Source: Candidatus Peribacteria bacterium | GTDB lineage: Bacteria > Patescibacteriota > Gracilibacteria > UBA1369 > 2-02-FULL-48-14 | Assembly: GCA_943357175.1 (NCBI GenBank) | Contig: CALRGE010000001.1 | Location: 65,232 to 129,231, forward strand | DNA: 64,000 nt | Direction: 5' to 3' | Shown: piece by piece, positions 11,160-26,903 of the stretch | How the letters are laid out: the number at the start of each line of letters is the position of its first letter | How positions within the stretch are numbered: position 1 is the first letter of the stretch | Notes under the pieces: model-generated | Database searches by the model: none | What the model was told of the DNA's origin: nothing | Seen by the model: the letters and a program-made list of their open reading frames with translations, nothing else | Made by a program: the position numbers and the translations under genes

Positions 11160-11771
11160 TTAAGATACTGTGTAAGTAAGTGTAGTTGTGTAGGTAGCCG
11201 CTGGTTCGAAAGCAGGGACAATAAGTCGAAGAACAGGTTCAAAAGTACATGACATTACACGTACTACAGCAGTTCCAACCAACAGATCTTTAGCTGTTGA
11301 AGCATCATCAAGAGCACCATCTGCTCCTAGGTCAACTGCATCCTCGAATGCACTGAAGGTGTCCTGAGATCGAGTAATACCTGCTGTACAGTCAGAACTT
11401 GAAACAGCTGTTAATGCATCATTGGCGTCAGTTTCAATTGAAAGTACAGTGTTATTCATTGAATTAGCATATGGGTTCAGACTTGTGTCTTTAAAGTCAT
11501 TAGCTGTAACTTGCATTGTAAAGCCTAATGCTCCACCTCTAGTGTCTGCAAAGGCAACGCTATTGTTAGCGTACGCTTGTGTAACAGTTGTTGCTGTCAC
11601 AGACGGAACAATGTTAGGAAAGTTTTGAGATACCGGAGTAGTTAGTGTGAAAGCACCACCTGTTAACTGTGCGCTTGATGTTGTTTCAGCAGCGCTTGCC
11701 ATTGCAACCAATCCAAGGTTTGCAAGCAAAGCCATACCGATAACAACAGAAACTAATTTTTTATTTTTCAT
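11160..11771 (-). CDS. small secreted WxL-like surface protein (W replaced by F/Y); first gene of the minus-strand surface operon
   Basis: 203 aa. Signal peptide ending MASAAETT. Contains GFTMQVTANDF and the C-terminal ATYTTTLTYTVS. Paralogue of 2928-3503. Confidence 0.6.
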   Translation of the reverse strand: MKNKKLVSVVIGMALLANLGLVAMASAAETTSSAQLTGGAFTLTTPVSQNFPNIVPSVTATTVTQAYANNSVAFADTRGGALGFTMQVTANDFKDTSLNPYANSMNNTVLSIETDANDALTAVSSSDCTAGITRSQDTFSAFEDAVDLGADGALDDASTAKDLLVGTAVVRVMSCTFEPVLRLIVPAFEPAATYTTTLTYTVS

Positions 11772-11801
11772 TTTTAAGAAATGTTAGTATTAATATATAT
11801 T

Positions 11802-11821
11802 ATTAACTAGTACTAGTTAAT
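11802..11821. promoter_or_regulatory. perfect 20-bp palindrome ATTAACTAGTACTAGTTAAT (candidate operator) in the divergent promoter region
   Basis: Read directly. It lies ~30 nt upstream of the 11771 start and overlaps a possible -35 (TTAACT, 17 nt, TATATT on the minus strand). Confidence 0.45.
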
Positions 11822-12050
11822 TTCTTTGTTTGAGTGCTGAAATTTCAAGGAACAAATCTCTTTAAAATCTACCGAATCACATAACTATATCATGAATTGC
11901 ATGGCCAGTCAAACCCATATTTTTAAATTAATGTAGCCTATCTCAAAGATAGGCGATTGATAGATCTAAGTGAACACAATATTTTTTACTTTCCACGTGC
12001 AATTAGTGCTTTTTTGTGCTAAAAATTTTAGGCATTTAATTTGTTTGTAG

Positions 12051-15193: not shown

Positions 15194-15619
15194 TTAGCAA
15201 TAGTTTTGGAGGAGCATGATATTACCCTGCTCTTTTGTCGTTTCGTAATATTTTTCGTCTGCTGTTACAAAAGTAGCGCCCTCACTAATTGCAAGTGCGT
15301 GATAGGCTGCATCATAAAATGAGATTTTTTTATATTTTTTCATTAAATCTAAAGCCAAGGTAATTTTTGATATATTCAAAATTTGTTCCCGTATAGTTGA
15401 AACTTTTAGTTTTGAGATGAAATTTAGTGCAAGTTCAGGTGCTTTTCTAGATATAGTGTTAGCCACTTCCATGTAACAATGCCCTGGTATAAGTATCTTT
15501 ATATTTCTTTCAATAAGATCATCCTGTATTTTTTCAGCTTGTTCCATGCCATTTTGTTCTTCTAATAACCATTTTATAATGATTGAAGCATCAATAACCA
15601 TAAGTTTACTCTCTTCCAT
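15194..15619 (-). CDS. vapC: PIN-domain toxin (VapC-like)
   Basis: Contains MVIDASIIIKWL (first acidic residue), ...CYMEVANT... and FYDAAYHALAISEGATFVTADEKY, which together give the typical PIN layout. Lies directly downstream of a small antitoxin-like gene. Confidence 0.8.
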   Translation of the reverse strand: MEESKLMVIDASIIIKWLLEEQNGMEQAEKIQDDLIERNIKILIPGHCYMEVANTISRKAPELALNFISKLKVSTIREQILNISKITLALDLMKKYKKISFYDAAYHALAISEGATFVTADEKYYETTKEQGNIMLLQNYC

Positions 15620-15848
15620 AATTTTTTAATTTAATAAATTCTTCAGTTGTCATCTTTAATTTTGCTTTTTTTCGCATTTCTCTAATTCCCTCAAATGCGA
15701 CCTTATTCCTAAAATCTTCCAATCCTCTTTGTATAGAATAATTCAAGAAATCGCTTCTTTCTCCATCCGGAATAAATTCTTTTATTTCTTGAAGAACATG
15801 AATATCTATCATGAAGTTAGTTTTCTTCCGTTTTGATAAGGTAAGCAT
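15606..15848 (-). CDS. small antitoxin-like protein (VapB-type partner)
   Basis: 80 aa, overlapping or abutting the PIN gene. A palindromic operator lies immediately upstream. Confidence 0.6.
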   Translation of the reverse strand: MLTLSKRKKTNFMIDIHVLQEIKEFIPDGERSDFLNYSIQRGLEDFRNKVAFEGIREMRKKAKLKMTTEEFIKLKNYGRE

Positions 15849-15914: not shown

Positions 15915-16391
15915 CTACTCACCACTTCCAACTTGAACTTTTGCAGGGCGGATTGTGCGACCGTTGAAGCTGTAACCTTTTTCGAAGATTTGTAAAACTT
16001 GATCAAGTGGTCCCGGTGCTTGAAGAACGACTTCGTGCTTATTTGGATCCGCAGGCACACCTGTTTCTGCAATCACGGAGAGGCCTAGTTTTTCGAGTTC
16101 GCCGAGTAAGTTTTTCTCGATTGCTTGAACACCTTTTAGCCATTCATTGTTTTGCAGTTCTGCAGGAACGGTTTCAAAGGCGCGGGCGAGATTGTCTATA
16201 ACAGGGAAAATGGCTTGAAGTAGACGCATATTCGCGAAAACTTGAATTTCGCCACGGTCTTCTTCAGCACGACGTTTGTAATTTTGAAAGTCGGCGAGGG
16301 TGCGTTTTGCTGTTTCGGTCATAACTGCAAGTTCTTCTTGAAGCTTGGCAAAGTCAGCTTGTACTTGTTCAATGTTAATTTCGTCTGTCAT
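15915..16391 (-). CDS. grpE: nucleotide exchange factor GrpE (short form)
   Basis: LADFQNYKRRAEEDR motif, plus the C-terminal beta domain FEKGYSFNGRTIRPAKV. 4-nt overlap with hrcA. Confidence 0.9.
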   Translation of the reverse strand: MTDEINIEQVQADFAKLQEELAVMTETAKRTLADFQNYKRRAEEDRGEIQVFANMRLLQAIFPVIDNLARAFETVPAELQNNEWLKGVQAIEKNLLGELEKLGLSVIAETGVPADPNKHEVVLQAPGPLDQVLQIFEKGYSFNGRTIRPAKVQVGSGE

Positions 16392-17107
16392 AGTTCGTTT
16401 GAGTTAAGTAAGTCGCGGATTTCTTTGAGTACCGCGTTGTTATATGCGTATGGCATACGCTTTGGGCCAAGAATTCCTATGTATCCTTTATAGCCTTCAT
16501 ATTGGTAACTTGTCACTATTAGAGAGCAACTTTCGATTGTCGGGAGAATATTTTCTTGGCCAATGAAGATTTTCACCTCGTTGCCGATGTCGAGTGTTGC
16601 AAGGCCTTTAAGAAATGCGTGGTCATCTTCAATTACTTCCATAACTTGGCTGGCTCGAACTGGTTCCATGGCGAATTCCGGTTGGAGTAAAATTTTTGAA
16701 AAGCCCATAAAAAATGTTCTGTTGTTTTCAGGGATTGTGGCGAAGGCCATATTAGGTGTTGCTTCGGATAGTAATTTTACCGCACCGTGAACTTTTTGCT
16801 TCACGATTCCTGCAAGGTGAGATTTTCGAAGCTCGTGAATTTTTTTGCTTGCGATTAGAGTTGCACGGTCCCAATCTGCGAGTTCATCAACGTAAAGGCG
16901 GTATCCTGCATCTGTTGGAACTCGACCTGCGGAAGTGTGAGGTTGAAAAATCAGTCCTTCCTCTTCGAGTTCGGCCATGTCGTTTCGAACGGTGGCTGGA
17001 GATACATCGAACTTGTAACTAACAATTATTGTTTTTGAACCAACAGGTTGGGCTGTTTCAATAAAGTGTTCTACAATCGCGCTGAAAATTTGTTTTTTTC
17101 TGTCCAT
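16388..17107 (-). CDS. hrcA: heat-inducible transcription repressor HrcA (short, 239 aa)
   Basis: N-terminal wHTH IVEHFIETAQPVGSKTI...SPATVRNDMAELEEEGLI.QPHTSAGRVPTDAGYR. C-terminal GYIGILGPKRMPYAYN. Confidence 0.85.
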   Translation of the reverse strand: MDRKKQIFSAIVEHFIETAQPVGSKTIIVSYKFDVSPATVRNDMAELEEEGLIFQPHTSAGRVPTDAGYRLYVDELADWDRATLIASKKIHELRKSHLAGIVKQKVHGAVKLLSEATPNMAFATIPENNRTFFMGFSKILLQPEFAMEPVRASQVMEVIEDDHAFLKGLATLDIGNEVKIFIGQENILPTIESCSLIVTSYQYEGYKGYIGILGPKRMPYAYNNAVLKEIRDLLNSNEL

Positions 17108-17219: not shown

Positions 17220-18275
17220 ATGTTAGAAAATGAAAGTTTACCATGGACGGATGTATATAGACACGCTTTGGACGATCATTCCAGGTTTATTCAGCTGTCC
17301 GACGGTTTGCTTGGTGCTGCTTCCGTAAGTACTTTTTCCGAAGGATACACGACGATTTTTGATTTGAGTGGATATACAAAAATTGTTAAAGATTTGGATA
17401 AATGGCAGCAAATGAAGCTTTCTGAGGCAATTGTTAATGGCGCATTGGAATTTGGTAAAAAAATTAATGCTATTTTAGTTCAACCGCCTGCAGGTGATCA
17501 GGGGATATATTATTCGCAAGAAGATCCTGGGGAATTACCTATTGAAGAGATGGTAAAGCAAATCGAAGAAGATGCAGATCTTAAAAGAGATTCTTTGTCT
17601 GCTAAAGCTGTGATTGTTCCGCACGACAGAAATTCACTATTCTTAGGCACTTTTTTGAGCCCGCGTAAAAGAGGTGAACAAAGTGGATACACGGCACTGA
17701 TGGGGCCTGCTTATACTCGTGGTCTTTCTCGACTTTCCAGAATTGCAAAAGATGAAGTTATAAGAACTGAAAAGCCAAAACCTTTTAATGAAGGATATTT
17801 TAGAGAACTTGATATGAATAAAAATAGAACTTCTAAAAAGTATGTTGAAAGAGCGGTAAATGTTTTATCTGCTCCTAAAGTGCCTGAAGGCCCATATATG
17901 CATGCTGTTTTGAAGGCTTGGGATATTCGTGGTCGGGCGAATCTTGTTGATCCATCTATCTCTGCAACTTTGGCGAAGGCATTTTTGGAAAATAGAAAAT
18001 CTTGGCAGCCTGTTAAGCAAGATGAGGGACATCTACATATTGTTTCAAAAGAGCAGCCTGAGGATGCAAGAGTTTCATTGAGTCATATGTTGGAGTCGAT
18101 AGAAAGAGAGGCGGGTTTGCCAGGTACAAAAATTCAATTTGCAAGCACCAGTGTTAGAAACTCAGTTAGATTGCAAGTGCGAGATCACGTTGATTTTGCG
18201 GGAATACAAGTGATTGATCTGGTTCATCAATTGAAGGGAAAAAACGTTGAAAAGACTGATGAACGTCATCTGTAA
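17220..18275 (+). CDS. class III nucleotidyl-cyclase-like protein (divergent)
   Basis: TIFDLSGYT (Asp at codon 48, nt 17361) and PPAGDQGIYY (Asp at codon 93, nt 17496) are 45 residues apart. Later comes AKAVIVPHDRNSLFLGTF...YTALMGPAYTRGLSRLSRIAKDEVI. The same layout occurs in the giant protein at 22417-26301. Confidence 0.5.
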   Translation: MLENESLPWTDVYRHALDDHSRFIQLSDGLLGAASVSTFSEGYTTIFDLSGYTKIVKDLDKWQQMKLSEAIVNGALEFGKKINAILVQPPAGDQGIYYSQEDPGELPIEEMVKQIEEDADLKRDSLSAKAVIVPHDRNSLFLGTFLSPRKRGEQSGYTALMGPAYTRGLSRLSRIAKDEVIRTEKPKPFNEGYFRELDMNKNRTSKKYVERAVNVLSAPKVPEGPYMHAVLKAWDIRGRANLVDPSISATLAKAFLENRKSWQPVKQDEGHLHIVSKEQPEDARVSLSHMLESIEREAGLPGTKIQFASTSVRNSVRLQVRDHVDFAGIQVIDLVHQLKGKNVEKTDERHL

Positions 18276-18292
18276 AATTGCAAAGAAATAAT

Positions 18293-19294
18293 CTATTTTT
18301 CCTTGCTAGCAATGTAGGCCACTAAGTCGATTACTCGGTTTGAGTAACCCCATTCGTTGTCGTACCAAGCGAAGACTTTTGCCATGTTTCCGATAGCTAA
18401 AGTTTCAGCTGAGTCAACGATTGAAGAGCGCATGTCTCCTTTGAAGTCGACTGATACAAGCGGCAAGTCAGATACACCTAGAATTCCTTTTAGTGGACCT
18501 TCTGAAGCGGCTTTTAATGCTGCATTTATTTCTGCAGGTGTAGCTTGTTTCGCTAATTCTACTGTTAAGTCTACTAGAGAAACAGTTGGAGTTGGAACTC
18601 GAACTGCCATTCCGTTTAATTTTCCAAGTAGTTCAGGAATAACCAATCCGATTGCCTTTGCAGCGCCTGTTGAACTTGGAATCATGCTTTGAGTTGCTGC
18701 ACGTGCTCTACGATAATCACGGTGATCATTGTCGTGAAGATTTTGATCGTTTGTGTACGCGTGGATTGTTGTCATCAAACCTTTCACAATTCCAAAAGAA
18801 TCATTTAATACTTTTGCTACCGGTGCCAGCCCGTTAGTTGTGCAACTTGCATTTGAAATAATGTGATCTGTTTCAGGATTGTAAGTGTTTTCGTTGATCC
18901 CCATCACGATTGTTCTATCAATTTCATCTTTTGCTGGTGCGGAGATTACTACTCGCTTTGCTCCTGCTGTGATGTGTTTTCCGGCACCTGCACGATCAGT
19001 AAATACTCCAGTACATTCTATAACAAGATCTATGTTTAGATCTTTCCAAGGGAGTTCTTCAGGGTTTCTTGCAGAAACCACTTTTATTTCCTTTCCATTG
19101 ATTGTGTATTTTCCTGGCTCACCCTTCACATCCATGTTTAAAGTTCCGTAGTTCGTATCGTATTTCAAAAGGTGAGCTCCCATTGCAGGATCTCCCAAAT
19201 CGTTAACGGCAACTATGTCGATTTTTGGGTTCATAAGGTTGGCACGAAAAACCATTCGTCCAATTCTACCGAATCCGTTTATTGCAACGCGCAT
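18293..19294 (-). CDS. gap: glyceraldehyde-3-phosphate dehydrogenase, type I
   Basis: INGFGRIGR Rossmann motif, SNASCTTN active site and C-terminal WYDNEWGYS. Confidence 0.95.
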   Translation of the reverse strand: MRVAINGFGRIGRMVFRANLMNPKIDIVAVNDLGDPAMGAHLLKYDTNYGTLNMDVKGEPGKYTINGKEIKVVSARNPEELPWKDLNIDLVIECTGVFTDRAGAGKHITAGAKRVVISAPAKDEIDRTIVMGINENTYNPETDHIISNASCTTNGLAPVAKVLNDSFGIVKGLMTTIHAYTNDQNLHDNDHRDYRRARAATQSMIPSSTGAAKAIGLVIPELLGKLNGMAVRVPTPTVSLVDLTVELAKQATPAEINAALKAASEGPLKGILGVSDLPLVSVDFKGDMRSSIVDSAETLAIGNMAKVFAWYDNEWGYSNRVIDLVAYIASKEK

Positions 19295-19407
19295 GTGTGT
19301 GGGGTTATTTTAAAATCGGGCATAGTATAATGTGAGATTGAGAAAAATCAAATTTAGGATTTATTGTCGGAATGAAATATTTAATATCCTCTATTCAGCA
19401 AGGGAGC

Positions 19408-19439
19408 GTTTAGATAAAGTTCATGAACTTTATCTAAAC
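19408..19439. promoter_or_regulatory. perfect 32-bp palindrome GTTTAGATAAAGTTCA|TGAACTTTATCTAAAC in a divergent intergenic region
   Basis: Read directly. It lies between gap (start 19294, minus) and the first cNMP-binding-like gene (start 19617, plus). Confidence 0.5.
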
Positions 19440-19616
19440 TTCCTAATAAATTTATTGCTTCAATAGTAACTCTAAATCCTGTTAATAAAACCCTACTAAA
19501 TTTGTTTATTTATAAATAGTCTATTTTAATACAGAATTTATAATTTGTTACTTGGAAAATTTGATTTTGCTGCAGCTGGGTGTTATTAAGATCTACTATA
19601 ATTTAATAAATATTAT

Positions 19617-20789
19617 ATGGGAACAATTGATGTTACAGATGTGCCTGAACGTGGTGAAGGGCCAGCGAATTTTGATGTGATTGAAGAAGCTGATCTTCAG
19701 CCGGTTGCAGATTTAGTTCAAGATCATCTGACTAAAGTATTAGGTGGCTCATTTGAAATTATATTGGATACTCGTCGAGCTGTAGTTAATGTTAATAAAT
19801 TGGAGACTGATGTTCAGCCAAATACTTCAAGTATTCCGCGTATTATGTTTCATGAAGATGCGGCCGAGGTTCTTGGGGAAAGAAATGTAATGGACCGATT
19901 AAAAATGTCACCTGTTTTTGTCGGAGTTGGTCTGAATACTTTGAAAACTATTGCTCAAAAAGCACAGATTTTACGAGCTGATGAAGGCTCTGAAATAATT
20001 TCTAAAGGTGGTCTTGTGAAGGGTTTATTGATACCAATGGTGGATGGTACAAATGTTAAGATTGTAGTTGAAGAAGAGGCTATACCAAATAAGCAGATTA
20101 CAGGAAGAAATTTGCAAAAAGATGAATTTTTGGGTGAATATATGATGGCTTTGGGGGCTAAGCCTACCAGTTCGGTTCTTTGTGTAAAAGAAGGTGGAGC
20201 AGAGTTTTTATATGTTCCGCACGAACTTTTTGAAGAACTGCATAAGAGATCTCAGCAAACAGTTAAAGAAAATATAATCAAAAAGACACCATTATCAAAA
20301 TTTCAAAATCAAAATCTAGATGAAGTTGATCTTGAAATGGCGGATAAGACATATGTTTACATCCCGACAAGACCAAAAGTCTCAAAAATTATTAAAGATA
20401 TTATCTTAGCAGGCTTGGGGGCTGAGGGTGACGCTAGTTTTGCTAAAGAATATGTCGCGGGTGATGAAATCATGACTCCAAGTGTTGGTTATTATGGTTT
20501 AATCTCTAGAGGTGCTGTGATCGTTGCCAATGAGACCATTGAGCCATTTAATCATGAGGTTTTAGCTGATGTTGCGGATGGGAATATTCTCTTTGAAGCG
20601 AATGCTGTTGGAGTAATTCCTCCAAAAAATATTAAAATCAGTGCAGGCATTCTTGGGGCAACTATTGTTTATGTATATCTCAATCCGGATCAGCCAAATT
20701 ATGAAGAATCATTAAATGCACTATTAGATGGACAGCACTCAAAGCTTACAAAGGCTAACTTAAGAAGAGCAGCAATTCAAAAATCTTAA
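19617..20789 (+). CDS. tandem cyclic-nucleotide-binding-like (CAP-effector-type beta-roll) domain protein, paralogue A
   Basis: 390 aa. SPVFVGVGLNTLKTIAQKAQILRADEGSEIISKG...DEFLGEYMMALGAKPTSSVLCVKEGGAEFLYVPHELFEEL. A second roll contains GNILFEANAVGV. The canonical Arg of the phosphate-binding cassette is not evident. Confidence 0.5.
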   Translation: MGTIDVTDVPERGEGPANFDVIEEADLQPVADLVQDHLTKVLGGSFEIILDTRRAVVNVNKLETDVQPNTSSIPRIMFHEDAAEVLGERNVMDRLKMSPVFVGVGLNTLKTIAQKAQILRADEGSEIISKGGLVKGLLIPMVDGTNVKIVVEEEAIPNKQITGRNLQKDEFLGEYMMALGAKPTSSVLCVKEGGAEFLYVPHELFEELHKRSQQTVKENIIKKTPLSKFQNQNLDEVDLEMADKTYVYIPTRPKVSKIIKDIILAGLGAEGDASFAKEYVAGDEIMTPSVGYYGLISRGAVIVANETIEPFNHEVLADVADGNILFEANAVGVIPPKNIKISAGILGATIVYVYLNPDQPNYEESLNALLDGQHSKLTKANLRRAAIQKS

Positions 20790-20799
20790 TAAATTTTCT

Positions 20800-21969
20800 A
20801 TGCCAAATCCAGATGATGAAGTAGTTGACCCAGAAGCGGCACCGATTCCAGATGGTTTGGCTTCTCATCTTCCAAGCAGAGCTGATATTAGAGATGAAGT
20901 TTCAATAGTTGGGCTTCATGATGGTGATCCAAATATTTCTCTTAGTGATTTAAGGGACTTTCTTCTTGAATATGAAGATGGTTTTTATTCTGATCTTGAT
21001 GATGAATTGACTGAAACTCGAGATGAACTTGCTGAAATTATTCCTGATGGTGGAATCGATGGCGAGGTTTTGGCAAATGTTTTGATTCCAAAAAAGACAT
21101 TAAAACATGCAATAACAAGCAATCCGCTTTTCGGAAATGTTGGAATGGAAACTAAGGAGAAAATTTTTGATAGAGCTGAGATTAGGTTTGTACCTCATGC
21201 TTCAATCATTATTGGTCCGGATACTAAGGATCAGGGAATGTTTATGCCTGTTAAAAAAGGTGTAGTGGAAATTTTTGATGTTGAAGGTAATAAAGTTGGA
21301 AGAAAAGTACTTGATGAGGGTAATTATATTGGTGAGTATGCATTGGTTGGACTTCAGCCGACGGCTAATATTGTAAATATGTCTGGAGAATCAAAATTTA
21401 TTTATATATCTAATGAACTTTTTGAGAGTTTACATATTGAATCAAGGCTGGAAATGTTGGAGGAATTGTTAAGAAACTCACCTTTAGTTAAATATTCTCA
21501 AGAGAATCCTGCTGAAACTTCGAGCGAAATTATTTCTGTTTCAGAGCCAAGGCATGATGTGGCAGCTTTATTTTCCAAGTTACTCTTGAAACCTTCTAAA
21601 CATGAAGCATTTCCTTCTTTTAAAGTTGTAAAATATCAAGTGGGAGAAGAAATTACGCCGCCAGATAAGAATTTTTTGGGGCTTATATCTGAGGGAGGTT
21701 TGGTGTCTGTAAATAGGGTGAACGAAGGTGGTGTTGGAACGCAAATTGCAGAGATTCAGCATTTTAATACTTTATTTGAGGCGAATGCAGTTGGAGTTCA
21801 GCCTCACTCCTCAATAAAACTGATTGCAGATAAAGAAACTACGGTTGTGTATGTAAACGTAGCTCGTGACAATACTAATTATGAAAAGTGTATGGCTGTT
21901 GCTTTGAGAGGCCAGGCGGCAAAATTGTCCGGTTCGAATGTAAGAGTTGGAATGCTTAAGAGAGACTAG
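20800..21969 (+). CDS. tandem cyclic-nucleotide-binding-like domain protein, paralogue B
   Basis: 389 aa. NPLFGNVGMETKEKIFDRAEIRFVPHASIII...GNYIGEYALVGLQPTANIVNMSGESKFIYISNELFESL. Shares LFEANAVGV and the overall layout with paralogue A. Confidence 0.5.
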   Translation: MPNPDDEVVDPEAAPIPDGLASHLPSRADIRDEVSIVGLHDGDPNISLSDLRDFLLEYEDGFYSDLDDELTETRDELAEIIPDGGIDGEVLANVLIPKKTLKHAITSNPLFGNVGMETKEKIFDRAEIRFVPHASIIIGPDTKDQGMFMPVKKGVVEIFDVEGNKVGRKVLDEGNYIGEYALVGLQPTANIVNMSGESKFIYISNELFESLHIESRLEMLEELLRNSPLVKYSQENPAETSSEIISVSEPRHDVAALFSKLLLKPSKHEAFPSFKVVKYQVGEEITPPDKNFLGLISEGGLVSVNRVNEGGVGTQIAEIQHFNTLFEANAVGVQPHSSIKLIADKETTVVYVNVARDNTNYEKCMAVALRGQAAKLSGSNVRVGMLKRD

Positions 21970-22035
21970 CGCTTTGACTAATGTCTGAAAATATGTTATT
22001 ATTATCTGATTACATATTTTATAACTAAAACAAAT

Positions 22036-22236
22036 ATGCAAAAACACGTTCATGTTGATGCGCAAAAACACAATAAAATTGTGGTTGCCGTCATCCTAGT
22101 AATTTTGGCACTTGCCACGGTTACAGTAATGTATCTTCGTTCGACAGGTGATGTTGACCTGAAAGATGGCGAAGGTAGAATACAAAAAACTTCTATATCT
22201 TTACCCGTTAACTCCATTCAAGGAGAAATGAATTAA
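22036..22236 (+). CDS. mini single-pass membrane protein (twin 1)
   Basis: 66 aa. TM segment IVVAVILVILALATVTVMYL. C-terminus ...NSIQGEMN. Confidence 0.45.
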   Translation: MQKHVHVDAQKHNKIVVAVILVILALATVTVMYLRSTGDVDLKDGEGRIQKTSISLPVNSIQGEMN

Positions 22237-22237
22237 T

Positions 22238-22408
22238 ATGACACCTAAAACACTTAAAATTCTACTTATCATCTCTATCGTGGTTCTTGCCATTGTATCT
22301 GTCTTGTATATGAAAACATACAATGAGCTTAAGTCTTATAAAGAAGGGTCAACAAGTATTCTTCAATTGAAATCTTCTAGTATACAGGGTGAGATGGGAA
22401 TTAAATAG
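22238..22408 (+). CDS. mini single-pass membrane protein (twin 2), not in the ORF track (56 aa)
   Basis: Hand translation gives MTPKTLKILLIISIVVLAIVSVLYMKTYNELKSYKEGSTSILQLKSSSIQGEMGIK. The ATG lies 1 nt after the previous stop. It shares the TM segment plus the SIQGEM C-terminal motif with twin 1. Confidence 0.45.
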   Translation: MTPKTLKILLIISIVVLAIVSVLYMKTYNELKSYKEGSTSILQLKSSSIQGEMGIK

Positions 22409-22416
22409 TTAAGAAA

Positions 22417-25400
22417 TTAAAATCTTAATTCAAGAGGTAAAAGCTGAACTGCTGTTGCGAGTTCGGTTTTTATTTGTTCATTTTCATTTCTGATATTTTT
22501 CTCTCCGGCTCCTTTGGTGTGATGTAGTTTTAAGCGGACATAATTGTTAGCCATATGCTCATTTATTGAAATCGTCTCTTTTACCAATTCTTTATCTGAA
22601 TCTATATTTGGATATTTTGCTATAGCTCTAATTTTATATTCACAGAGCGCGCAATATCCTAACATTGCATTCGCTCTATTTAGCATGTCACCTGAGAGAA
22701 TTGCAGATGATTCCAATTTACGAATTCTTTCCTCCAATCCCTCTAACATTTCAAAAGTTTCTTCTCTGCTTGATTCAGGTGAGTTTGCTTTTTCTCTGCA
22801 TAAATAATCGTAAGCTTCAACAACACCTTGGAGCGTGTCATTTGTTTGAAATAAATCAGGAGGATTAATATTTGCAAATTTCTTTCCAGCTTGGTCAAAA
22901 ATTTTAATTGCTGCCTCGTGATCTCCAAGTTGATTACTCGTACCACCACATAACCTTAAAAATGTGGCTTGAGTTTCTTCTGATCCTTTTGAGCCAAATT
23001 TTATCAATGCATCCAGTTCATCTTTAAATGCCGTTTTTTTCTTTTTGTAATATTCTTTCAATTCATCTTTTTCTATTACTCTCTTATCTTTTAAAGAACG
23101 TAGTGTGTAAACTTTTCTTAGTAAATTATCCATTTCAATTGTAGCAATTACGCCATCTCTTTCGTTGCTAATAGAAAGTGTTTGCAGTTCAGCAATAAGT
23201 TTTTTGAAAATCGTTTGTCTTTCGCGCATTTCAAATATGCCATCAAGTTCTTTTTCATCGAAGGAATTTTCGAGAGTTGAAACGACATTTCCAGGTACCG
23301 CATTATTCTTTCCATCTAATGTACACAACCTGTATTTTCTCCAGATCAGCTTTAATTTTATGCCTTCCAATGAGCTTGAGGAATCTATTGTTGCATATAT
23401 TTCCTCTGCGATTTTGCGTTGCTTTTCGTCACTTGTGTGGAAGGTTTGGGCCATGTCCATGAAGAAGTCAAAATTTTCAGGTTTAATTTTTTGGAGGCCG
23501 GATTTTTTTAAGTAATCGTAGTAGGCTCTGCGGGATTCAGAAACGAAACCTTGGCCGAAGTAGTATTTTGCGACTTTTGAACATGATTTAATTAGGCTTT
23601 GTTCATTTACTTGGCCGGCGTTCAAAAGATGCTGAAATTTTGCTTCAATTGAATCAATTTCTTCGCCTTCGAATGCGTTTTGAAAAATTAGCATCCGTGA
23701 GAATTCGGTTTCATCTTTTACAGCAAGAAGCAGTGCAGAATTTCTTTCATTTTTATCTTTGAGATCGTAGTTTTCACCTATTTTTTCCAGTAAACCTTTG
23801 TCACATAAATATTCAAGATCTTCCGAAAATGTTTTTTTCATTTCAGAATTTTCTTGGCGAATATTTTTAAGATTGCAATAAATTGGCCAAAGAATTTTTA
23901 TGCTAGTTTTTAATTTTACTGAGGCTACTAGACCTAAAATAAATTGTCTTTCTTCAGAAACACCTTCACGAATTTTGCGTCCGATTTCTCCTGTTCTTAT
24001 ATTTTTGGTTTTACTTTTATCAAAGAAAATTCTTCCACCTTCTTTTGTTAGAGCTTCGTTCAAAATATATATTAAATTTCGTGGTGTAATTTGGAAATTT
24101 TCTTCCTCACAGAATTTTTCCAAAGCCAAAGTCAGCGGTTGTAGGTCTGTAATAAGGTCTAATTGTATTATATTGATGTCTAATAACATGTCCGCTGCAT
24201 CTTCAATGGTCATTGCTTTAACTTCAATGGTTTTTCCGCCAAAATCACCACTGTGAATCAGACCTGTCTTTGTTGTTACTATTGCTGCAGCGAATCGCTC
24301 AAAAAGTGGCCTTTCGTTTGGATTAATTTCTTTAATATCCAGCACTAATAAATTTCTTTCGTTTAGTGTAGAGGCATCCAGTAAAAGTTCATCGAATTTT
24401 ACCAGTAAATCTTTTTCCGCTATATCCTTTCTAATGTTAGGATAAAAAGAACAGACAAGACCTCGAATTAAAGTGTAAGAGTCTTGCCCCAATTTCTCTA
24501 TATTTGAAGCTTTTATACCTTTTTCTGTTGCGTGTTTTAATGAGTGTCTCATCAATGCCGAAACACCTGTACCGCTAAGATTTGAATAAATTTTTAGGAA
24601 ATTACCATTTGTTCCTAGATTGGAAACGAAGTCTTCGATTTCTTTTTTTTCAACGTCAACACCGACCAGTTCTTTACCCGAAATTTTTTCCGGATCAATG
24701 TCATGTAGATCAATTTTTAAACACATTATGTCTCCACCTTTGGCTCTTACAACGTCAAATTCAAATATATTTCCAAATGCTTTTCTACAAAACTCAGTGT
24801 CAATTCTAAGGTCACGACTTTCAGTTCCAAGTCTTACTGATTTCACAATTCCTGAGCCAGCTCTTTCTTCAAGTGAGCTACCTAGCACTCGAGTTCGAAC
24901 CATGCTTTCTGTGTATCCCACGCCAATTCCAAGTTTGAATCCCTCGGTAGAAATCATCTCCGCCATGTCTCTGCAAAAAGCTAAAATTTTCTTTCCGTTT
25001 GCTTCGTTCAAAGGAAGTTTTGTGTGAACATGTAATTTCTCACCGTCTTTTTTAAATGTGAAAAAATCAGGGTAGTTTTTAATTATTTTGAAGTATTTTT
25101 TTATTACTGATTCGTATCTTTCTTGTCTCATTCCTAGATCCTCAAGACTACCAATTTGGAATGCTATCGAGGTAGCATCGATTGCAGGTAGTTTTTCCTT
25201 GCCACGATTCATATTGTCGACGGTGCTTATACAACCACGTGTGTGTGTTGCCTGAGCTAGTGCCGAGATCAGGGCGATTGATTCCTTGTAACTATCTGGC
25301 AAGCAATCTCTTATCAAAGTGATATATTTGCTGCCTGGTTCTTTGATGTATTTAATATCTTTAATCTCTGGCATTTCAACATTAGCTAAATCCTCATCTT

Positions 25401-26301
25401 TAACTTCGTAGCCTTTTAATATAATTCCTAAATCTTTCAAATATGATTTTGTTTCGCCATCTACTTCGAGCCTGTTTTTTCCCACATTTTTTTGGCCATG
25501 AATTGCTCTAACATATGCATCTCCGTCAACGTCGATTAGTCCATCTTCTGTACCTTTTGGTGATGTATATATAGAAAGCCTTAAATCACCATCTGCTTTT
25601 GCCACACCAGTTGAGAAGGTAAAATTCCCGTCTGGATACAGCTTTTTGTCAGGATTATTTAAGGGAACTTTAATCTTAACTTCGCGAAGTGCTTTCAAGA
25701 AAGCAGGCAAATGCTCTTCAACATAAAATACATATGCGTCTCCGGCCGGTGCTTGTAAAAGTTTAACATTGAATTTCTTACAAAGCTGAAACATAGTTAT
25801 TTGATAACTTTCATCTAGTGCGGTCTTTTGTGAGTCGGTTGCTTGATATTGAAAATTTGAGTAGCCATTTAAATCTGCGACTATTGTAAAACCTGGTTTT
25901 AGTGGGAAATTAAGGTGAATATCACTTATAGCATCGTTGATGCTTATGTTTGGATTTTTGCGAAATCTCTCAACAATTTCTTTTTTTAGTGGATCTATAT
26001 ATGCTTTTATCCAGGGTGGGGATGTTATTAATTCCCAAAGTTGATCGATGTTGTAAGTTTTTAGAGCATCGGTGATGTTGTCGATTCCACTAATTTTTCC
26101 AATTGCAGTCAAAATACCAGTAAGAATATTTTTACGATTTCCTTCAGCGATAACATTAATAATCTCAGATCCTGTGCGTGTGTTTAAATCGAATACACTG
26201 TTAGAGACTAGGGAAGGCTCCTTTGTTTCATCTGGTAAATCTTCGCTTTTATCTTCTCGGCGATCAATAATTTTTATATTTCCCATAGTTGCCCGCACCA
26301 T
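22417..26301 (-). CDS. giant multidomain protein: cyclase-like domain, second degenerate cyclase-like domain, STAND/AAA16-like module with degenerate Walker A, long helical (TPR-like) repeat region
   Basis: The ORF is open to 26529, but the first 76-81 codons overlap the divergent tsaC and look non-protein-like. Internal ATGs lie at 26301 (MVRATMGNIK) and 26286. TIVADLNGYS, then 45 aa, then APAGDAYVFY. FKKDGEKLHV...FKLGIGVGYTESMVRTRVLG. SNLSGTGVSALM has no Walker Lys. LLVLDIKE. The C-terminal ~550 aa are helical repeats. Confidence 0.6.
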   Translation of the reverse strand: MVRATMGNIKIIDRREDKSEDLPDETKEPSLVSNSVFDLNTRTGSEIINVIAEGNRKNILTGILTAIGKISGIDNITDALKTYNIDQLWELITSPPWIKAYIDPLKKEIVERFRKNPNISINDAISDIHLNFPLKPGFTIVADLNGYSNFQYQATDSQKTALDESYQITMFQLCKKFNVKLLQAPAGDAYVFYVEEHLPAFLKALREVKIKVPLNNPDKKLYPDGNFTFSTGVAKADGDLRLSIYTSPKGTEDGLIDVDGDAYVRAIHGQKNVGKNRLEVDGETKSYLKDLGIILKGYEVKDEDLANVEMPEIKDIKYIKEPGSKYITLIRDCLPDSYKESIALISALAQATHTRGCISTVDNMNRGKEKLPAIDATSIAFQIGSLEDLGMRQERYESVIKKYFKIIKNYPDFFTFKKDGEKLHVHTKLPLNEANGKKILAFCRDMAEMISTEGFKLGIGVGYTESMVRTRVLGSSLEERAGSGIVKSVRLGTESRDLRIDTEFCRKAFGNIFEFDVVRAKGGDIMCLKIDLHDIDPEKISGKELVGVDVEKKEIEDFVSNLGTNGNFLKIYSNLSGTGVSALMRHSLKHATEKGIKASNIEKLGQDSYTLIRGLVCSFYPNIRKDIAEKDLLVKFDELLLDASTLNERNLLVLDIKEINPNERPLFERFAAAIVTTKTGLIHSGDFGGKTIEVKAMTIEDAADMLLDINIIQLDLITDLQPLTLALEKFCEEENFQITPRNLIYILNEALTKEGGRIFFDKSKTKNIRTGEIGRKIREGVSEERQFILGLVASVKLKTSIKILWPIYCNLKNIRQENSEMKKTFSEDLEYLCDKGLLEKIGENYDLKDKNERNSALLLAVKDETEFSRMLIFQNAFEGEEIDSIEAKFQHLLNAGQVNEQSLIKSCSKVAKYYFGQGFVSESRRAYYDYLKKSGLQKIKPENFDFFMDMAQTFHTSDEKQRKIAEEIYATIDSSSSLEGIKLKLIWRKYRLCTLDGKNNAVPGNVVSTLENSFDEKELDGIFEMRERQTIFKKLIAELQTLSISNERDGVIATIEMDNLLRKVYTLRSLKDKRVIEKDELKEYYKKKKTAFKDELDALIKFGSKGSEETQATFLRLCGGTSNQLGDHEAAIKIFDQAGKKFANINPPDLFQTNDTLQGVVEAYDYLCREKANSPESSREETFEMLEGLEERIRKLESSAILSGDMLNRANAMLGYCALCEYKIRAIAKYPNIDSDKELVKETISINEHMANNYVRLKLHHTKGAGEKNIRNENEQIKTELATAVQLLPLELRF

Positions 26302-26345
26302 ACAATGGTTTTGCAGTTTTGTAAAGACTGTGATATAACTTTTAT

Positions 26346-26903
26346 ATGGATTTTTTAAAGGCAGTTCAGGCGTTGCGGGAAGGGAAGGTTGTGGCTCATG
26401 CAACTGAAACTTGTTATGGTTTGGCTGTAGATATTTTTTCTCATGATGCTGTTTTGAGATTATATGACATGAAAAAGATGGATTTAGATAAGCCGGTGAG
26501 TATTTTATGTACTTCACTTGATGAGGCAAAGAAATACGGCGAATTTTCAGAAAAGGCGTTGAGTTTGGCAGAGAAATACTGGCCCGGGCCCCTTACGATT
26601 GTTGTGAGCAGGAAGGCGGCATTGCCTGTGTGGATAAATCCGGGTGTTTCTACGATAGGAATCAGAGTTAGTTCAAATGAAATAACTCGTGAATTAGTTG
26701 AAGGTTTTGGAGGTCCAATTACTACTACAAGTGCAAACATTCACGGTTTGCCCCAGGCTTATTCTGTTGATGAATTTGCTGAATTGAAACCAGATTTTAT
26801 TCTGGATAGTGGAAGGATCCCGCCAATTTCTCCTTCTACTATTGTTGAGGTGATAGGGGATAGTTTGAAAATAATTCGACAAGGTGATCTGAAGATTGGG
26901 TGA
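26346..26903 (+). CDS. tsaC: L-threonylcarbamoyladenylate synthase, YrdC/TsaC type
   Basis: Contains HATETCYGLAVD, KPVSILC, WPGPLTIVV and TTSANIHG, the characteristic YrdC-domain motifs. Confidence 0.85.
   Translation: MDFLKAVQALREGKVVAHATETCYGLAVDIFSHDAVLRLYDMKKMDLDKPVSILCTSLDEAKKYGEFSEKALSLAEKYWPGPLTIVVSRKAALPVWINPGVSTIGIRVSSNEITRELVEGFGGPITTTSANIHGLPQAYSVDEFAELKPDFILDSGRIPPISPSTIVEVIGDSLKIIRQGDLKIG

What the first reader, a model, noticed from the sequence alone, without database searches (positions are those of the whole stretch)
17220..26529. Candidate undescribed nucleotide-second-messenger system: two paralogous class-III-cyclase-like proteins flanking two tandem cNMP-binding-like proteins and two mini membrane peptides
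Seen: the 351-aa protein and the N-terminal part of the giant minus-strand protein share TIFDLSGYT / TIVADLNGYS and, exactly 45 residues later, PPAGDQGIYY / APAGDAYVFY. Both then have a beta-strand-plus-helix segment (AKAVIVPHD...YTALMGPAYTRGLSRLSRIAKDEVI vs FSTGVAKAD...DVDGDAYVRAIHGQKNVGKNRLEV). Between the two genes (apart from gap) lie two adjacent paralogues of 390 and 389 aa. They share LFEANAVGV, and each has two beta-roll segments with the cNMP-binding-domain layout (...PVF..L....L..IA....I......G..II..G......L.I...G...I.....FLGE.......P....V.......FLY.....F..L). These are followed by two twin single-pass peptides. Established: class III cyclases carry the two metal-binding Asp in F-x-D-[IL]-x-G-[FY]-T and G-D motifs roughly 44 residues apart (from memory). 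Cyclase plus CNB-domain effector pairs constitute Pycsar antiphage systems. Cyclase-ATPase-TPR proteins exist in mycobacteria (Rv0386 type). STAND NTPases with C-terminal repeat sensors and N-terminal effectors are Avs-type defence proteins. Inference: a sensor-coupled cyclase (the giant protein) and a stand-alone cyclase may produce a nucleotide signal that is read by the CNB-like pair, possibly acting on the membrane through the mini-peptides. The combination of a STAND-like sensor, a cyclase effector, separate tandem-CNB receptors and mini-TM peptides is not one I know as a described system. Caveats: gap interrupts the cluster, the genes lie on both strands, and co-localisation could be chance.
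Basis: partly seen in the sequence, partly recalled or inferred. Interest (0 to 1): 0.75.

Follow-up and report, generated by a model that had tools for sequence, protein, structure and literature searches.

The report
Divergent cyclase-sensor signalling module in Peregrinibacteria
A tiny-genome candidate-phylum bacterium carries an unannotated gene cluster that looks like a complete cyclic-nucleotide signalling unit: a very large enzyme-plus-sensor protein, one or two proteins resembling cyclic-nucleotide receptors, and small membrane peptides that always travel with the large protein and may be its signal.

Summary
Both "cyclase-like" proteins share the D-L-x-G-Y-[ST] and A-G-D motifs exactly 45 residues apart and are homologous. 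The two 390-aa proteins are paralogues, and so are the two mini-proteins.

Structure prediction plus Foldseek shows the giant (likely start 26286, not 26529) has four parts:
- two tandem class-III cyclase-homology domains, laid out like AC9 or human soluble AC C1-C2
- a STAND NTPase with a degenerate Walker A
- a TPR array

The 390-aa proteins carry one clear and one marginal CNB domain. The phosphate-binding Arg is replaced.

The organism is a Peribacteria/Peregrinibacteria (CPR) bacterium. The giant family has only about 20 representatives among 1.84 billion proteins, and Pfam, NCBIfam and PADLOC do not detect it.

Comparative loci change the picture:
- The conserved core is the giant plus a convergent mini-protein. 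The mini's lineage-specific C-terminal motif is often tandemly duplicated.
- CNB genes join only in one subclade.
- The 351-aa protein is a truncated paralogue. It occurs without the module, and the module occurs without it.

A defence reading (Pycsar/Avs) finds little support.

Verdict: a new variant of the cyclase-STAND-TPR plus CNB-receptor kind. A peptide-sensing reading remains open.

The parts
22417..26286 (-). Giant protein (1289 aa from MGNIK; the ORF extends to a TTG at 26529 that overlaps yrdC). Domain order: tandem cyclase-homology domains, STAND NTPase, TPR array.
   Evidence: ORF. Start inferred from orthologues. Structure models. Foldseek results.
25432..26049 (-). Giant residues 80-285: conserved N-terminal helices (PPW motif) plus cyclase-homology domain 1. 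It carries the metal-binding Asp candidates D138 (DLNGYS) and D183 (AGD).
   Evidence: D, G-D and one Gly are invariant in an 18-member family alignment. A profile search of PDB gives class III cyclases as its top 7 hits in the correct motif register, but with E=0.06-1.1. Foldseek matches. Secondary structure follows the beta-alpha-alpha-beta-beta-alpha-beta order.
24682..25299 (-). Giant residues 330-535: cyclase-homology domain 2. It lacks the Asp pair. It keeps invariant K412, acidic E474, R485, and a terminal KGG motif. It is the C2-like half of an intramolecular pseudo-heterodimer.
   Evidence: Foldseek alignments of 420-436 columns to the tandem C1-C2 cores of AC9 (7pdf) and human soluble AC (5d0r). 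Invariant columns. Model confidence is low (pLDDT<50) for residues 459-527. A CHD2 profile finds nothing in PDB.
23722..24654 (-). Giant residues 545-855: STAND-type NTPase module (alpha/beta nucleotide-binding domain, helical domain, winged helix). The Walker A is degenerate (S-G-T-G-V-S-A-L, Lys replaced by Val). A Walker-B-like LLVLD is present.
   Evidence: AF2 model with pLDDT 80.3. Foldseek matches 6mfv STAND-TPR at E=8.9e-9, then Apaf-1, Cdc6/Orc1, NLR resistosomes and Avs3. Invariant G572, G574, V575, S576 and D650.
22420..23709 (-). Giant residues 860-1289: all-helical TPR-like repeat array, the presumed sensor. It is the fastest-evolving part of the protein.
   Evidence: Helix-only secondary structure. 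Foldseek matches to TPR proteins such as LGN and APC subunits. Identity to L005/L006 orthologues is 21-23% here against 54-55% in CHD1.
22036..22236 (+). Mini-protein 1 (66 aa). It has a basic His-rich N-terminus, one roughly 20-residue hydrophobic helix, a variable S/T/P-rich spacer, and a conserved C-terminal tail ...SIQGEMN.
   Evidence: It was called as a gene in public collections.
22238..22408 (+). Mini-protein 2 (56 aa), a paralogue of mini 1. Its tail is ...SIQGEMGIK. It ends 8 nt before the giant's stop codon, in convergent orientation.
   Evidence: The same GEMGIK tail occurs in L009.
19617..20789 (+). CNB-like protein 1 (390 aa). It has an acidic, variable N-terminus, a CNB-A domain, a divergent CNB-B-like beta-roll, and a conserved C-terminal helix.
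20800..21969 (+). CNB-like protein 2 (389 aa), a paralogue of protein 1. Pfam cNMP_binding matches residues 131-211.
   Evidence: Pfam E=2e-4, 21.7 bits, below the 27.5 gathering score. A family profile against PDB PKG CNB domains gives E=1.4e-7. The second half matches a PDB CNB domain (3gyd) at E=0.017.
17220..18275 (+). 351-aa paralogue ('protA'). It has a CHD1-like domain with both Asp (D48, D93) plus a C-terminally truncated CHD2-like half, and no STAND or TPR. It sits divergent from hrcA, which is the slot the giant occupies in distant relatives. It is not an obligatory module member.

Best explanation
This is a lineage-specific cyclic-nucleotide-type signalling module of Peribacteria/Peregrinibacteria (CPR).

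The giant protein is a highly divergent class-III-type cyclase. Two cyclase-homology domains sit in one chain. CHD1 supplies the two metal-binding Asp. CHD2 supplies the Lys, acidic and Arg residues, as in the C1-C2 pseudo-heterodimer of mammalian and soluble adenylyl cyclases. These are fused to a STAND NTPase module and a TPR sensor array. This is the same domain order as human soluble adenylyl cyclase and the mycobacterial Rv0386 type.

Inferred mechanism:
1. A ligand recognised by the TPR/STAND part switches or oligomerises the protein.
2. That turns on the intramolecular cyclase.
3. The nucleotide product is read by the tandem-CNB proteins encoded next door. These are built like PKA regulatory subunits and have no effector domain of their own, so they most likely act by binding or releasing a partner.

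The small single-pass proteins are constant genetic partners of the giant. They are either the source of the signal it senses or its membrane-side partner.

The 351-aa protein is a truncated paralogue of the cyclase core left at the ancestral hrcA-adjacent position. It is not required for the module.

Shown: the folds, the motifs, the homology and the gene linkage. Inferred: catalysis, the identity of the nucleotide, CNB binding, and the role of the minis.
For: Giant N-terminus:
- Foldseek of the N-terminal model returns only class III cyclases in its top 46. The best matches span both domains: AC9 7pdf at E=5.9e-8 over 436 columns, and human sAC 5d0r at E=1.3e-6 over 420 columns.
- D, G-D and Gly are invariant in 18 family members.
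- A profile search of PDB puts cyclases first and aligns DLnGYs to DIvGFt and paGDayvF to tiGDAYMV.
- CHD2 keeps invariant K412, E474 and R485 and a KGG end.

Giant C-terminus:
- The model has pLDDT 80.3.
- It matches STAND-TPR 6mfv at E=8.9e-9, then Apaf-1, NLRs and Avs3, then TPR proteins.

CNB proteins:
- The CNB-A profile matches PKG and PKA-R domains at E=1.4e-7. Pfam PF00027 reaches 1.5e-8 in family members.
- CNB-B matches only CNB/CRP domains, at E=0.017-0.8.

Linkage:
- The order gap-CNB(x1-2)-mini(x1-2)-giant-yrdC is found in the window and in L003, L004, L005, L006, L007, L009, L012 and L013.
- The block is absent as a unit in L001.
- The giant-mini pair stays adjacent and convergent after relocation to the hrcA-gap interval in L015 and L016.

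Precedents:
- Human sAC has a P-loop and putative TPRs after C1-C2 (PMC3475452).
- Rv0386 combines AC, ATPase and TPR (bioRxiv 10.1101/2024.03.06.583649).
- Xanthomonas has a linked cyclase and CNB-receptor gene pair (PMC3770947).
Against: - No Pfam, NCBIfam or PADLOC model detects the cyclase-like domains, even at E<=10, in any of 18 family members.
- The N-terminal model has low confidence: mean pLDDT 53.9, and below 50 for part of CHD2.
- The CHD2 profile finds nothing in PDB.
- The transition-state Asn position is not conserved.
- The Walker A Lys is lost.
- In the CNB phosphate-binding cassette, the Arg that contacts the cyclic phosphate is replaced. PT is invariant where canonical domains have RT or RA.
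- The distant giants whose downstream flank is readable (L010, L011, L015) have no adjacent CNB gene; L016 is cut off just after its mini.
- CNB2 is internally deleted in the closest relative, L009.
- The whole neighbourhood is syntenic in these genomes, so co-localisation alone is weak evidence.
- No phosphodiesterase or effector was found nearby.
Confidence: 0.55

Rival explanations
1. Peptide-sensing system. The minis are precursors of exported signalling peptides. Their lineage-specific C-terminal units are released, re-imported and bound by the giant's TPR array, which then switches on the cyclase. The logic would be RRNPP- or arbitrium-like, but with a cyclic-nucleotide output instead of a DNA-binding output. 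This refines the best explanation rather than contradicting it.
For: - A mini lies immediately downstream of and convergent to the giant in the window and in L003-L007, L009, L012, L013, L015 and L016.
- The design matches known precursors: a basic N-terminus, one hydrophobic helix, a variable spacer, and a conserved extreme C-terminal motif.
- The motif is tandemly duplicated in five lineages: ISGEMN x2 in L004, QGEMN x2 in L007, IEQGS[LM]E[IV] x2 in L012, AVGPGMSV x2 in L015, IIETGD x2 in L016.
- The two paralogous minis of one genome share the same tail, while tails differ between genomes: QGEMN, ISGEMN, MGGEI.
- TPR identity drops to 21-23% in the genomes with changed tails, but stays at 45% where the tail core GEMN is kept. 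CHD1 changes little, 54-61%.
- The charge distribution predicts that the tail faces outside (my reading of the sequences).
Against: - There is no evidence of export, processing or import, and no peptide transporter or protease nearby.
- The hydrophobic stretch is about 20 residues, more like a membrane anchor than a cleavable signal peptide.
- L010 and L011 giants have no adjacent mini.
- No RRNPP receptor appears among the top 50 structural matches.
- The tail-TPR co-variation follows phylogeny and rests on very few genomes.
Confidence: 0.2
2. Anti-phage defence system. On this view an Avs-like STAND sensor detects a phage protein and its cyclase domain makes a Pycsar-like nucleotide. That nucleotide activates the CNB proteins, and the small membrane proteins kill the cell.
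For: - STAND plus TPR architecture, with Avs3 and NLR resistosomes among the structural matches.
- Pairing of a cyclase with a CNB protein, as in Pycsar (PMC11224242).
- Small membrane proteins are present.
- The block is absent in one related genome.
- The sensor region evolves fast.
Against: - No PADLOC model matches any of the six proteins at E<=1.
- The giant sits in the same housekeeping neighbourhood (hrcA, gap, yrdC, rsmH) across relatives down to about 25% identity. That indicates long vertical inheritance rather than a mobile defence island.
- The CNB proteins carry no effector or transmembrane domain.
- The Walker A motif is degenerate in most members.
- The only toxin-like gene nearby is a PIN-domain gene beyond the chaperone genes.
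Confidence: 0.08
3. Non-catalytic scaffold. The cyclase-homology and CNB-like domains would be degenerate pseudo-domains that neither make nor bind a cyclic nucleotide. The giant would be a STAND-TPR scaffold or chaperone-related factor, kept next to hrcA-grpE-dnaK for other reasons. The gene order would reflect conserved synteny rather than shared function.
For: - Sequence models do not detect the cyclase domains.
- The Asn of the transition-state pair, the Walker A Lys and the CNB phosphate-binding Arg are all missing.
- The truncated 351-aa paralogue persists on its own.
- Distant giants lie directly beside the heat-shock operon.
Against: - Both metal-binding Asp and the flanking Gly residues are invariant across a family that has otherwise diverged to about 20% identity. 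That is hard to explain without catalysis or at least nucleotide/metal binding.
- K412 and R485 in CHD2 are also invariant.
- The Gly-Glu of the CNB cassette is retained in 7 of 8 sequences.
Confidence: 0.17

Closest known systems
Soluble adenylyl cyclase (human ADCY10) and bacterial sAC-like enzymes
   Same: Two class III catalytic domains sit in one chain (C1-C2), followed by a P-loop motif and a long helical region with putative TPRs. Foldseek aligns the giant's N-terminus to sAC C1-C2 over about 420 columns. The domain order and approximate positions match the description in PMC3475452.
   Different: Sequence similarity is undetectable by Pfam and phmmer. The Walker A Lys is lost. There is no evidence for bicarbonate, haem or other sAC regulation. 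Homology of the C-terminal regions was not tested.
Mycobacterial Rv0386 / Rv1358 / Rv2488c (class IIIc cyclase, ATPase, TPR, LuxR HTH)
   Same: A cyclase is fused N-terminally to a MalT/STAND-type ATPase and TPR repeats (bioRxiv 10.1101/2024.03.06.583649).
   Different: Those proteins have one cyclase domain that is recognised by standard models, an intact Walker A and a C-terminal HTH. The giant has two cyclase-homology domains, a degenerate Walker A and no detectable HTH.
Xanthomonas XC_0250 / XC_0249 cGMP pathway
   Same: A class III cyclase gene is linked to a gene for a CNB-domain receptor (PMC3770947).
   Different: The Xanthomonas receptor carries a GGDEF output domain. The CNB proteins here have no output domain and a non-canonical binding cassette.
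Pycsar anti-phage systems
   Same: A two-gene logic of a class III-type cyclase plus a cyclic-nucleotide receptor protein (PMC11224242).
   Different: There is no PADLOC match. No effector or membrane domain is fused to the CNB domain. The module is in conserved chromosomal synteny rather than a defence island. The cyclase is fused to a STAND-TPR sensor.
PKA regulatory subunits and PKG tandem CNB domains
   Same: The layout is a variable N-terminus followed by CNB-A and CNB-B. The best sequence-profile matches are PKG and PKA-R CNB domains.
   Different: No kinase partner is known. The Arg of the phosphate-binding cassette is replaced, giving [KRQ]-P-T-A instead of P-R-[ST]-A. CNB-B is only marginally detectable.
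RRNPP and arbitrium peptide-receptor pairs (Rap-Phr, PlcR-PapR, AimR-AimP)
   Same: A helical-repeat (TPR) cytoplasmic protein is encoded next to a small ORF. That ORF has an N-terminal hydrophobic segment and a lineage-specific motif at its extreme C-terminus. This comparison rests on my own knowledge of those systems.
   Different: The output would be a cyclase rather than an HTH or phosphatase domain. The receptor is a STAND protein. No structural match to RRNPP receptors appears in the top 50. Export and processing are untested.

Membership tests
Class III nucleotidyl cyclase (Pfam Guanylate_cyc, PF00211) | Match to the family's sequence model at or above its curated threshold | tested here: not met
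   No Pfam or NCBIfam hit at E<=1 for the 351-aa protein or the giant. None in 7 distant full-length relatives. None at E<=10 in the 18 CHD1 segments.
Class III nucleotidyl cyclase (Pfam Guanylate_cyc, PF00211) | Cyclase-homology fold (beta-alpha-alpha-beta-beta-alpha-beta palm-like core) | tested here: met
   Foldseek against PDB: ranks 1-46 are all class III cyclases, best E=5.9e-8, TM-score normalised to target 0.5-0.63 for single domains. Caveat: model mean pLDDT is 53.9.
Class III nucleotidyl cyclase (Pfam Guanylate_cyc, PF00211) | Two metal-binding Asp, in D-[IL]-x-G-[FY]-[ST] and G-D, about 44 residues apart | tested here: met
   D138 and D183 in the giant and D48 and D93 in the 351-aa protein, 45 residues apart. 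D and G-D are invariant in 18 family members. A profile alignment to GC-A places them on the catalytic Asp motifs.
Class III nucleotidyl cyclase (Pfam Guanylate_cyc, PF00211) | Substrate-specifying Lys/Asp and transition-state Asn/Arg, supplied by the second domain in pseudo-heterodimers | tested here: inconclusive
   K412, E474 and R485 of CHD2 are invariant and sit in plausible positions. The Asn position is Val or Lys. The assignment is by motif only, because CHD2 gives no PDB sequence match. In the 351-aa protein the Arg position is His or Asp and the last strands are missing.
Class III nucleotidyl cyclase (Pfam Guanylate_cyc, PF00211) | Cyclase activity | not testable with these tools
   Needs an enzyme assay.
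Cyclic nucleotide-binding domain (Pfam cNMP_binding, PF00027) | Sequence-model match for the first beta-roll | tested here: met
   The window's CNB2 scores 21.7 bits, E=2e-4, below the 27.5 gathering score. Three of 8 family members match, with best E=1.5e-8. The family profile matches PKG CNB domains in PDB at E=1.4e-7.
Cyclic nucleotide-binding domain (Pfam cNMP_binding, PF00027) | Phosphate-binding cassette G-E-x-A-L ... P-R-[ST/A]-A, with the Arg that contacts the cyclic phosphate | tested here: not met
   G-E is kept in 7 of 8 sequences, but the Arg column is an invariant Pro followed by Thr. The motif is [KRQ]-P-T-[AS].
Cyclic nucleotide-binding domain (Pfam cNMP_binding, PF00027) | Second beta-roll is also a CNB domain | tested here: inconclusive
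   A profile of the C-terminal halves hits only CNB, CRP and PKA-R chains, but at E=0.017-0.8.
STAND NTPase | Nucleotide-binding domain, helical domain and winged helix, followed by a repeat sensor | tested here: met
   Model pLDDT 80.3. Foldseek matches 6mfv STAND-TPR at E=8.9e-9, Apaf-1 at 8.4e-6, plus NLRs and Avs3.
STAND NTPase | Canonical Walker A, G-x-x-x-x-G-K-[ST] | tested here: not met
   The window type has S-G-T-G-V-S-A-L. Among the listed relatives only P0017 has G-S-G-K-S. A Walker-B-like hhhhD (LLVLD, D650) is invariant in the five window-type giants aligned.
Pycsar | Match to Pycsar cyclase or effector models, with the effector being a CNB domain fused to a membrane or other toxic domain | tested here: not met
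   No PADLOC match at E<=1. The CNB proteins have no further domain.
Avs (antiviral STAND) | Match to Avs models and a defence-island context | tested here: not met
   No PADLOC match. The neighbours are hrcA, grpE, gap, yrdC and rsmH, and they are conserved across relatives.
RRNPP-type peptide receptor with cognate propeptide | TPR receptor encoded next to a small exported precursor whose C-terminal part is the signal | tested here: inconclusive
   The TPR fold and an adjacent small ORF with a hydrophobic N-terminal segment and a conserved, often duplicated C-terminal motif are present. There is no RRNPP structural match in the top 50. Export and binding are untestable here.
Rv0386-type cyclase-ATPase-TPR-HTH regulators | C-terminal LuxR-type HTH | tested here: not met
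   No HTH family is detected in the giant.

The most novel reading that the evidence does not exclude
The mini-proteins may be precursors of secreted peptide signals. Their lineage-specific, often tandemly duplicated C-terminal units would be sensed by the TPR array of the giant. The system would then be a peptide-pheromone receptor that answers with a cyclic nucleotide, read in one subclade by PKA-R-like CNB proteins. That would be a cell-cell or symbiont-host communication system in CPR bacteria of a kind not described so far.
Probability: 0.2. Interest if true: 0.85.

Novelty: new variant of a known kind. Interest (0 to 1): 0.6.

Why it matters
Peregrinibacteria belong to the candidate phyla radiation. 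Their genomes are very small, and almost nothing is known about how they sense their surroundings.

This cluster spends about 7 kb on what appears to be a complete sense-signal-read unit, so it gives a concrete, testable entry point. It also shows a clade of class-III-type cyclases so divergent that standard annotation misses it entirely. Its domain order, C1-C2 then P-loop/STAND then TPR, is that of mammalian soluble adenylyl cyclase, whose long C-terminal region is still poorly understood.

If the small partner proteins turn out to be peptide signals, this would link peptide sensing to cyclic-nucleotide output in a new way.

Tried and rejected
- Single-sequence Pfam, NCBIfam and PADLOC scans of all six proteins gave nothing for the cyclase-like proteins or the minis. 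Pfam on 7 distant giants and on 18 CHD1 segments at E<=10 also gave nothing.
- phmmer of both cyclase-like proteins against PDB found nothing meaningful.
- A CHD2 profile against PDB found no cyclase.
- Two scans of JGI metagenome contigs, one with the CNB alignment and one with the giant alignment, found no relatives.
- A neighbour-joining tree of CHD1 could not place the 351-aa protein. It sits on a long branch, with distances of 0.86-0.89 to several clades. So the idea that it descends specifically from the hrcA-adjacent type of giant is unresolved.
- The promoter and terminator scan was no better than shuffled sequence. The one good promoter-like site upstream of mini 1 (21974-22002) is only a hint.
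- I checked whether the window's 838-aa ORF (30972-33488) is the SLT/LysM/amidase gene that lies between the 351-aa gene and gap in relatives. It is unrelated.
- A literature search for Peregrinibacteria plus adenylate cyclase returned nothing.
- The idea that the GEMGIK tail of mini 2 is an assembly error was dropped, because L009 has the same tail and L013's mini also ends in GIK.

Full report
**What is in the window**

The region holds these genes:
- hrcA, 16388-17107 (-)
- a 351-aa ORF ('protA'), 17220-18275 (+)
- gap (GAPDH), 18293-19294 (-)
- two adjacent ORFs of 390 and 389 aa, 19617-20789 and 20800-21969 (+)
- two tiny ORFs of 66 and 56 aa, 22036-22236 and 22238-22408 (+)
- a convergent minus-strand ORF, 22417-26529
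- yrdC/sua5, 26346-26903 (+)

The upstream TTG of the long ORF overlaps yrdC. Orthologues begin at MGNIK, so the giant most likely starts at 26286 and is 1289 aa long.

GC content is about 37%. Related loci come from MAGs named Candidatus Peribacteria or Peregrinibacteria, which is a CPR lineage. The only RNA gene in the window is one tRNA-Glu.

**Checking the observation**

The two Asp-containing motifs are 45 residues apart in both proteins.
- protA against the giant: BLASTP E=9e-10.
- Profile-profile comparison: 97.5% probability, E=6e-12, over protA residues 6-282. This reaches past the first domain into a second one.
- A pairwise alignment with a distant giant (L011) covers the same stretch.
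- The two 390-aa proteins are 30% identical, E=2e-36.
- The two minis align at E=4e-7.

**Are they cyclases?**

Sequence libraries say nothing. There is no Pfam, NCBIfam or PDB hit for protA or the giant. There is none for distant relatives, and none at E<=10 for 18 isolated first domains.

Structure says yes. I made an AlphaFold2 model of giant residues 1-545 from a 4-sequence alignment. Confidence is modest: mean pLDDT 53.9, with 60-82 across the first domain and below 50 for residues 459-527. The secondary structure follows the beta-alpha-alpha-beta-beta-alpha-beta order.

Foldseek against PDB returns only class III cyclases in ranks 1-46:
- The best matches are two-domain catalytic cores: AC9 7pdf at E=5.9e-8 over 436 columns, and human soluble AC 5d0r at E=1.3e-6 over 420 columns.
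- Single bacterial domains (CyaC, Rv1625c, 5o5l) follow, with TM-scores of 0.5-0.63 normalised to the target.

Sequence evidence agrees in register:
- In an 18-member alignment of the first domain, the only invariant columns are the first Asp, the Gly-Asp and a Gly before the last helix.
- A profile of that alignment ranks GC-A, CyaB, soluble GC and GC-C first in PDB. The E-values are not significant (0.06-1.1), but the alignment places DLnGYs on DIvGFt and paGDayvF on tiGDAYMV.

The second domain lacks the Asp pair. It keeps invariant K412, acidic E474, R485 and a terminal KGG. That is the division of labour between C1 and C2 in pseudo-heterodimeric cyclases. This residue assignment is by motif and is an inference, because the second-domain profile finds nothing in PDB.

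**The rest of the giant**

A model of residues 531-1289 is confident (pLDDT 80.3). It shows an alpha/beta domain, a helical and winged-helix part, and then about 430 residues of helical repeats.

Foldseek matches are as follows:
- a STAND-TPR protein, 6mfv, at E=8.9e-9
- Apaf-1, Cdc6/Orc1, plant NLR resistosomes, SAMD9 and Avs3
- then TPR proteins

The Walker A motif is degenerate (S-G-T-G-V-S-A-L), while a Walker-B-like LLVLD is kept. Among the relatives listed, only one has G-S-G-K-S.

The overall order is therefore C1-like, C2-like, P-loop/STAND, TPR. Human soluble adenylyl cyclase has the same order (PMC3475452). So do the mycobacterial Rv0386-type proteins, except that those have a single cyclase domain and an HTH (bioRxiv 10.1101/2024.03.06.583649).

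**The 390-aa proteins**

- A profile of eight family members matches CNB domains of PKG and PKA regulatory subunits, best E=1.4e-7.
- Pfam cNMP_binding reaches 1.5e-8 in one member, but only 21.7 bits (below the gathering score) in the window's CNB2.
- The alignment shows G-E retained. The Arg that contacts the cyclic phosphate is replaced by an invariant Pro-Thr, preceded by Lys, Arg or Gln.
- The second half hits only CNB, CRP and PKA-R chains, but marginally, at E=0.017-0.8.
- No other domain is present.

The layout resembles a PKA regulatory subunit.

**Comparative genomics**

The families are very small.
- protA has 5 relatives in 5.8 billion proteins. The giant has 3 and CNB2 has 2 in the same collection.
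- A full HMMER scan of 1.84 billion cluster representatives with the giant's N-terminal profile found 20 proteins. All are giants of about 1000-1450 aa or fragments of them, and none is a canonical cyclase.
- None of the looked-up proteins carries a name in any source.

Gene order in each locus:

| Locus | Gene order or feature |
|---|---|
| window, L003, L004, L007 | gap, CNB1, CNB2, mini, mini, giant (convergent), yrdC |
| L005, L006 | same order as far as the contigs reach |
| L009 | same order, but CNB2 has an internal deletion leaving 158 aa |
| L012, L013 | one CNB gene, one mini, giant |
| L013 | protA absent |
| L001 | protA present; CNB genes, minis and giant all absent; gap abuts yrdC |
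| L015, L016 (distant giants) | giant between hrcA and gap, still followed by a convergent mini |
| L015 | no CNB gene |
| L010, L011 | giant alone between hrcA and gap |

Three conclusions follow:
- The giant-mini pair is the conserved core, and it survives rearrangement.
- CNB genes are a subclade addition that was later duplicated.
- protA is a truncated paralogue sitting in the ancestral slot of the giant. Its second domain ends right after the last helix and has His or Asp where the giants have the invariant Arg.

**The minis**

All share the same plan: a basic N-terminus, one hydrophobic helix of about 20 residues ending in Tyr, a variable Ser/Thr/Pro-rich spacer, and a short motif at the extreme C-terminus.

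The tail motif has three notable properties:
- It is the same in the two paralogues of one genome but differs between genomes: QGEMN, ISGEMN, MGGEI.
- It is tandemly duplicated in five lineages: ISGEMN x2, QGEMN x2, IEQGS[LM]E[IV] x2, AVGPGMSV x2, IIETGD x2.
- The genomes with changed tails are those in which the giant's TPR region has diverged most. TPR identity there is 21-23%, against 45% where the tail core GEMN is kept. CHD1 stays at 54-61%.

The N-terminal flank is always the more basic one, so the tail is predicted to face outside. This is my inference. The whole pattern resembles exported peptide precursors whose receptors are TPR proteins, but nothing here tests export or binding.

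**Mechanism**

The best-supported reading has three steps:
1. A ligand sensed by the STAND-TPR part activates the intramolecular two-domain cyclase.
2. The product is read by the tandem-CNB proteins.
3. Those proteins act on an unidentified partner.

The minis are either the source of the signal or a membrane partner. Catalysis, product identity and CNB binding are all inferred.

Weak points:
- low model confidence for part of the cyclase core
- missing Asn, Walker A Lys and cassette Arg
- no phosphodiesterase or effector nearby
- general synteny of the neighbourhood

**Rivals**

- A defence system of the Avs or Pycsar kind is disfavoured. There are no PADLOC matches, the module has been inherited vertically for a long time among housekeeping genes, and the CNB proteins have no toxic domain.
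- A non-catalytic scaffold reading cannot be excluded. It fits poorly with the invariance of exactly the catalytic-site residues in a family that has otherwise diverged to about 20% identity.

**Novelty**

Cyclase-STAND-TPR fusions are known. So are linked cyclase and CNB-receptor genes, for example Xanthomonas XC_0250/XC_0249 (PMC3770947) and Pycsar (PMC11224242).

What is new here:
- a cyclase clade invisible to standard models and restricted, as far as these searches show, to Peregrinibacteria
- a tandem-domain, soluble-AC-like layout in a CPR bacterium
- a CNB cassette without the Arg
- a constant small partner protein with a lineage-specific, repeat-prone C-terminal motif

I rate it a new variant of a known kind, with moderate-to-high interest.

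Noticed in passing
L009:14282-14758 (-), the closest relative's counterpart of window 20800-21969: CNB2 is reduced to 158 aa by an in-frame internal deletion. The deletion joins the acidic N-terminus directly to ...ANAVGVQPHSS. CNB1 stays intact, which suggests that the two CNB paralogues are redundant.
   Followed up: partly
window 22384-22408; L009 13855-14025: Mini 2 ends in QGEMGIK, whereas the other close orthologues end in QGEMN. Removing two G's from 'atgggaattaaatag' would restore GEMN followed by a stop. The same tail occurs in L009, and L013's mini also ends in GIK, so this is a real variant rather than an assembly error.
   Followed up: partly
L010, L011, L015, L016: In distant Peregrinibacteria the giant is transcribed divergently from the hrcA-grpE-dnaK heat-shock operon. 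This is the position that the truncated 351-aa paralogue occupies in the window. Any functional link to the heat-shock regulon is unexplored.
   Followed up: no
L012 13795-14010 (-); L013 13833-14036 (-): The minis of these two loci have an N-terminal H-x-C-x-x-C motif (HTCEHC, HSCERC). The window-type minis have a His-rich MQKH.H instead. This could be a cytoplasmic metal-binding knob.
   Followed up: no
window 15194-15848 (-): A PIN-domain gene (141 aa, Pfam E=9e-14) overlaps an 80-aa ORF upstream of it. This is a probable toxin-antitoxin pair, lying beyond grpE on the side away from hrcA. Related loci L002 and L013 also have it.
   Followed up: no
window 8275-14507: A cluster of WxL and WxL-interacting (WxLIP_PGBD) surface-protein genes, including an 818-aa protein. 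Two PMT-type glycosyltransferase genes lie at 3500-8274.
   Followed up: no
window 30972-33488 (+): An 838-aa protein built of about eight repeats of roughly 96 residues (VKADLEAF..CGK.V.EL..SD...E.IC.NG.SVKF..Y). It has no real Pfam family. It is unrelated to the equally long SLT/LysM/amidase gene that lies between the 351-aa gene and gap in L002, L003 and L009.
   Followed up: partly
window 21974-22002 (+): The best promoter-like site in the region (TTGACT, 17 nt, TATTAT, with an upstream TG) lies between CNB2 and mini 1. The minis may therefore have their own promoter. The scan as a whole was not above chance.
   Followed up: no
P0017 (L015 3052-7026): Among the listed relatives of the giant, this is the only one with a canonical Walker A (GESGSGKS). 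All the others have lost the Lys, which suggests the NTPase became a non-hydrolysing switch early in the family.
   Followed up: no
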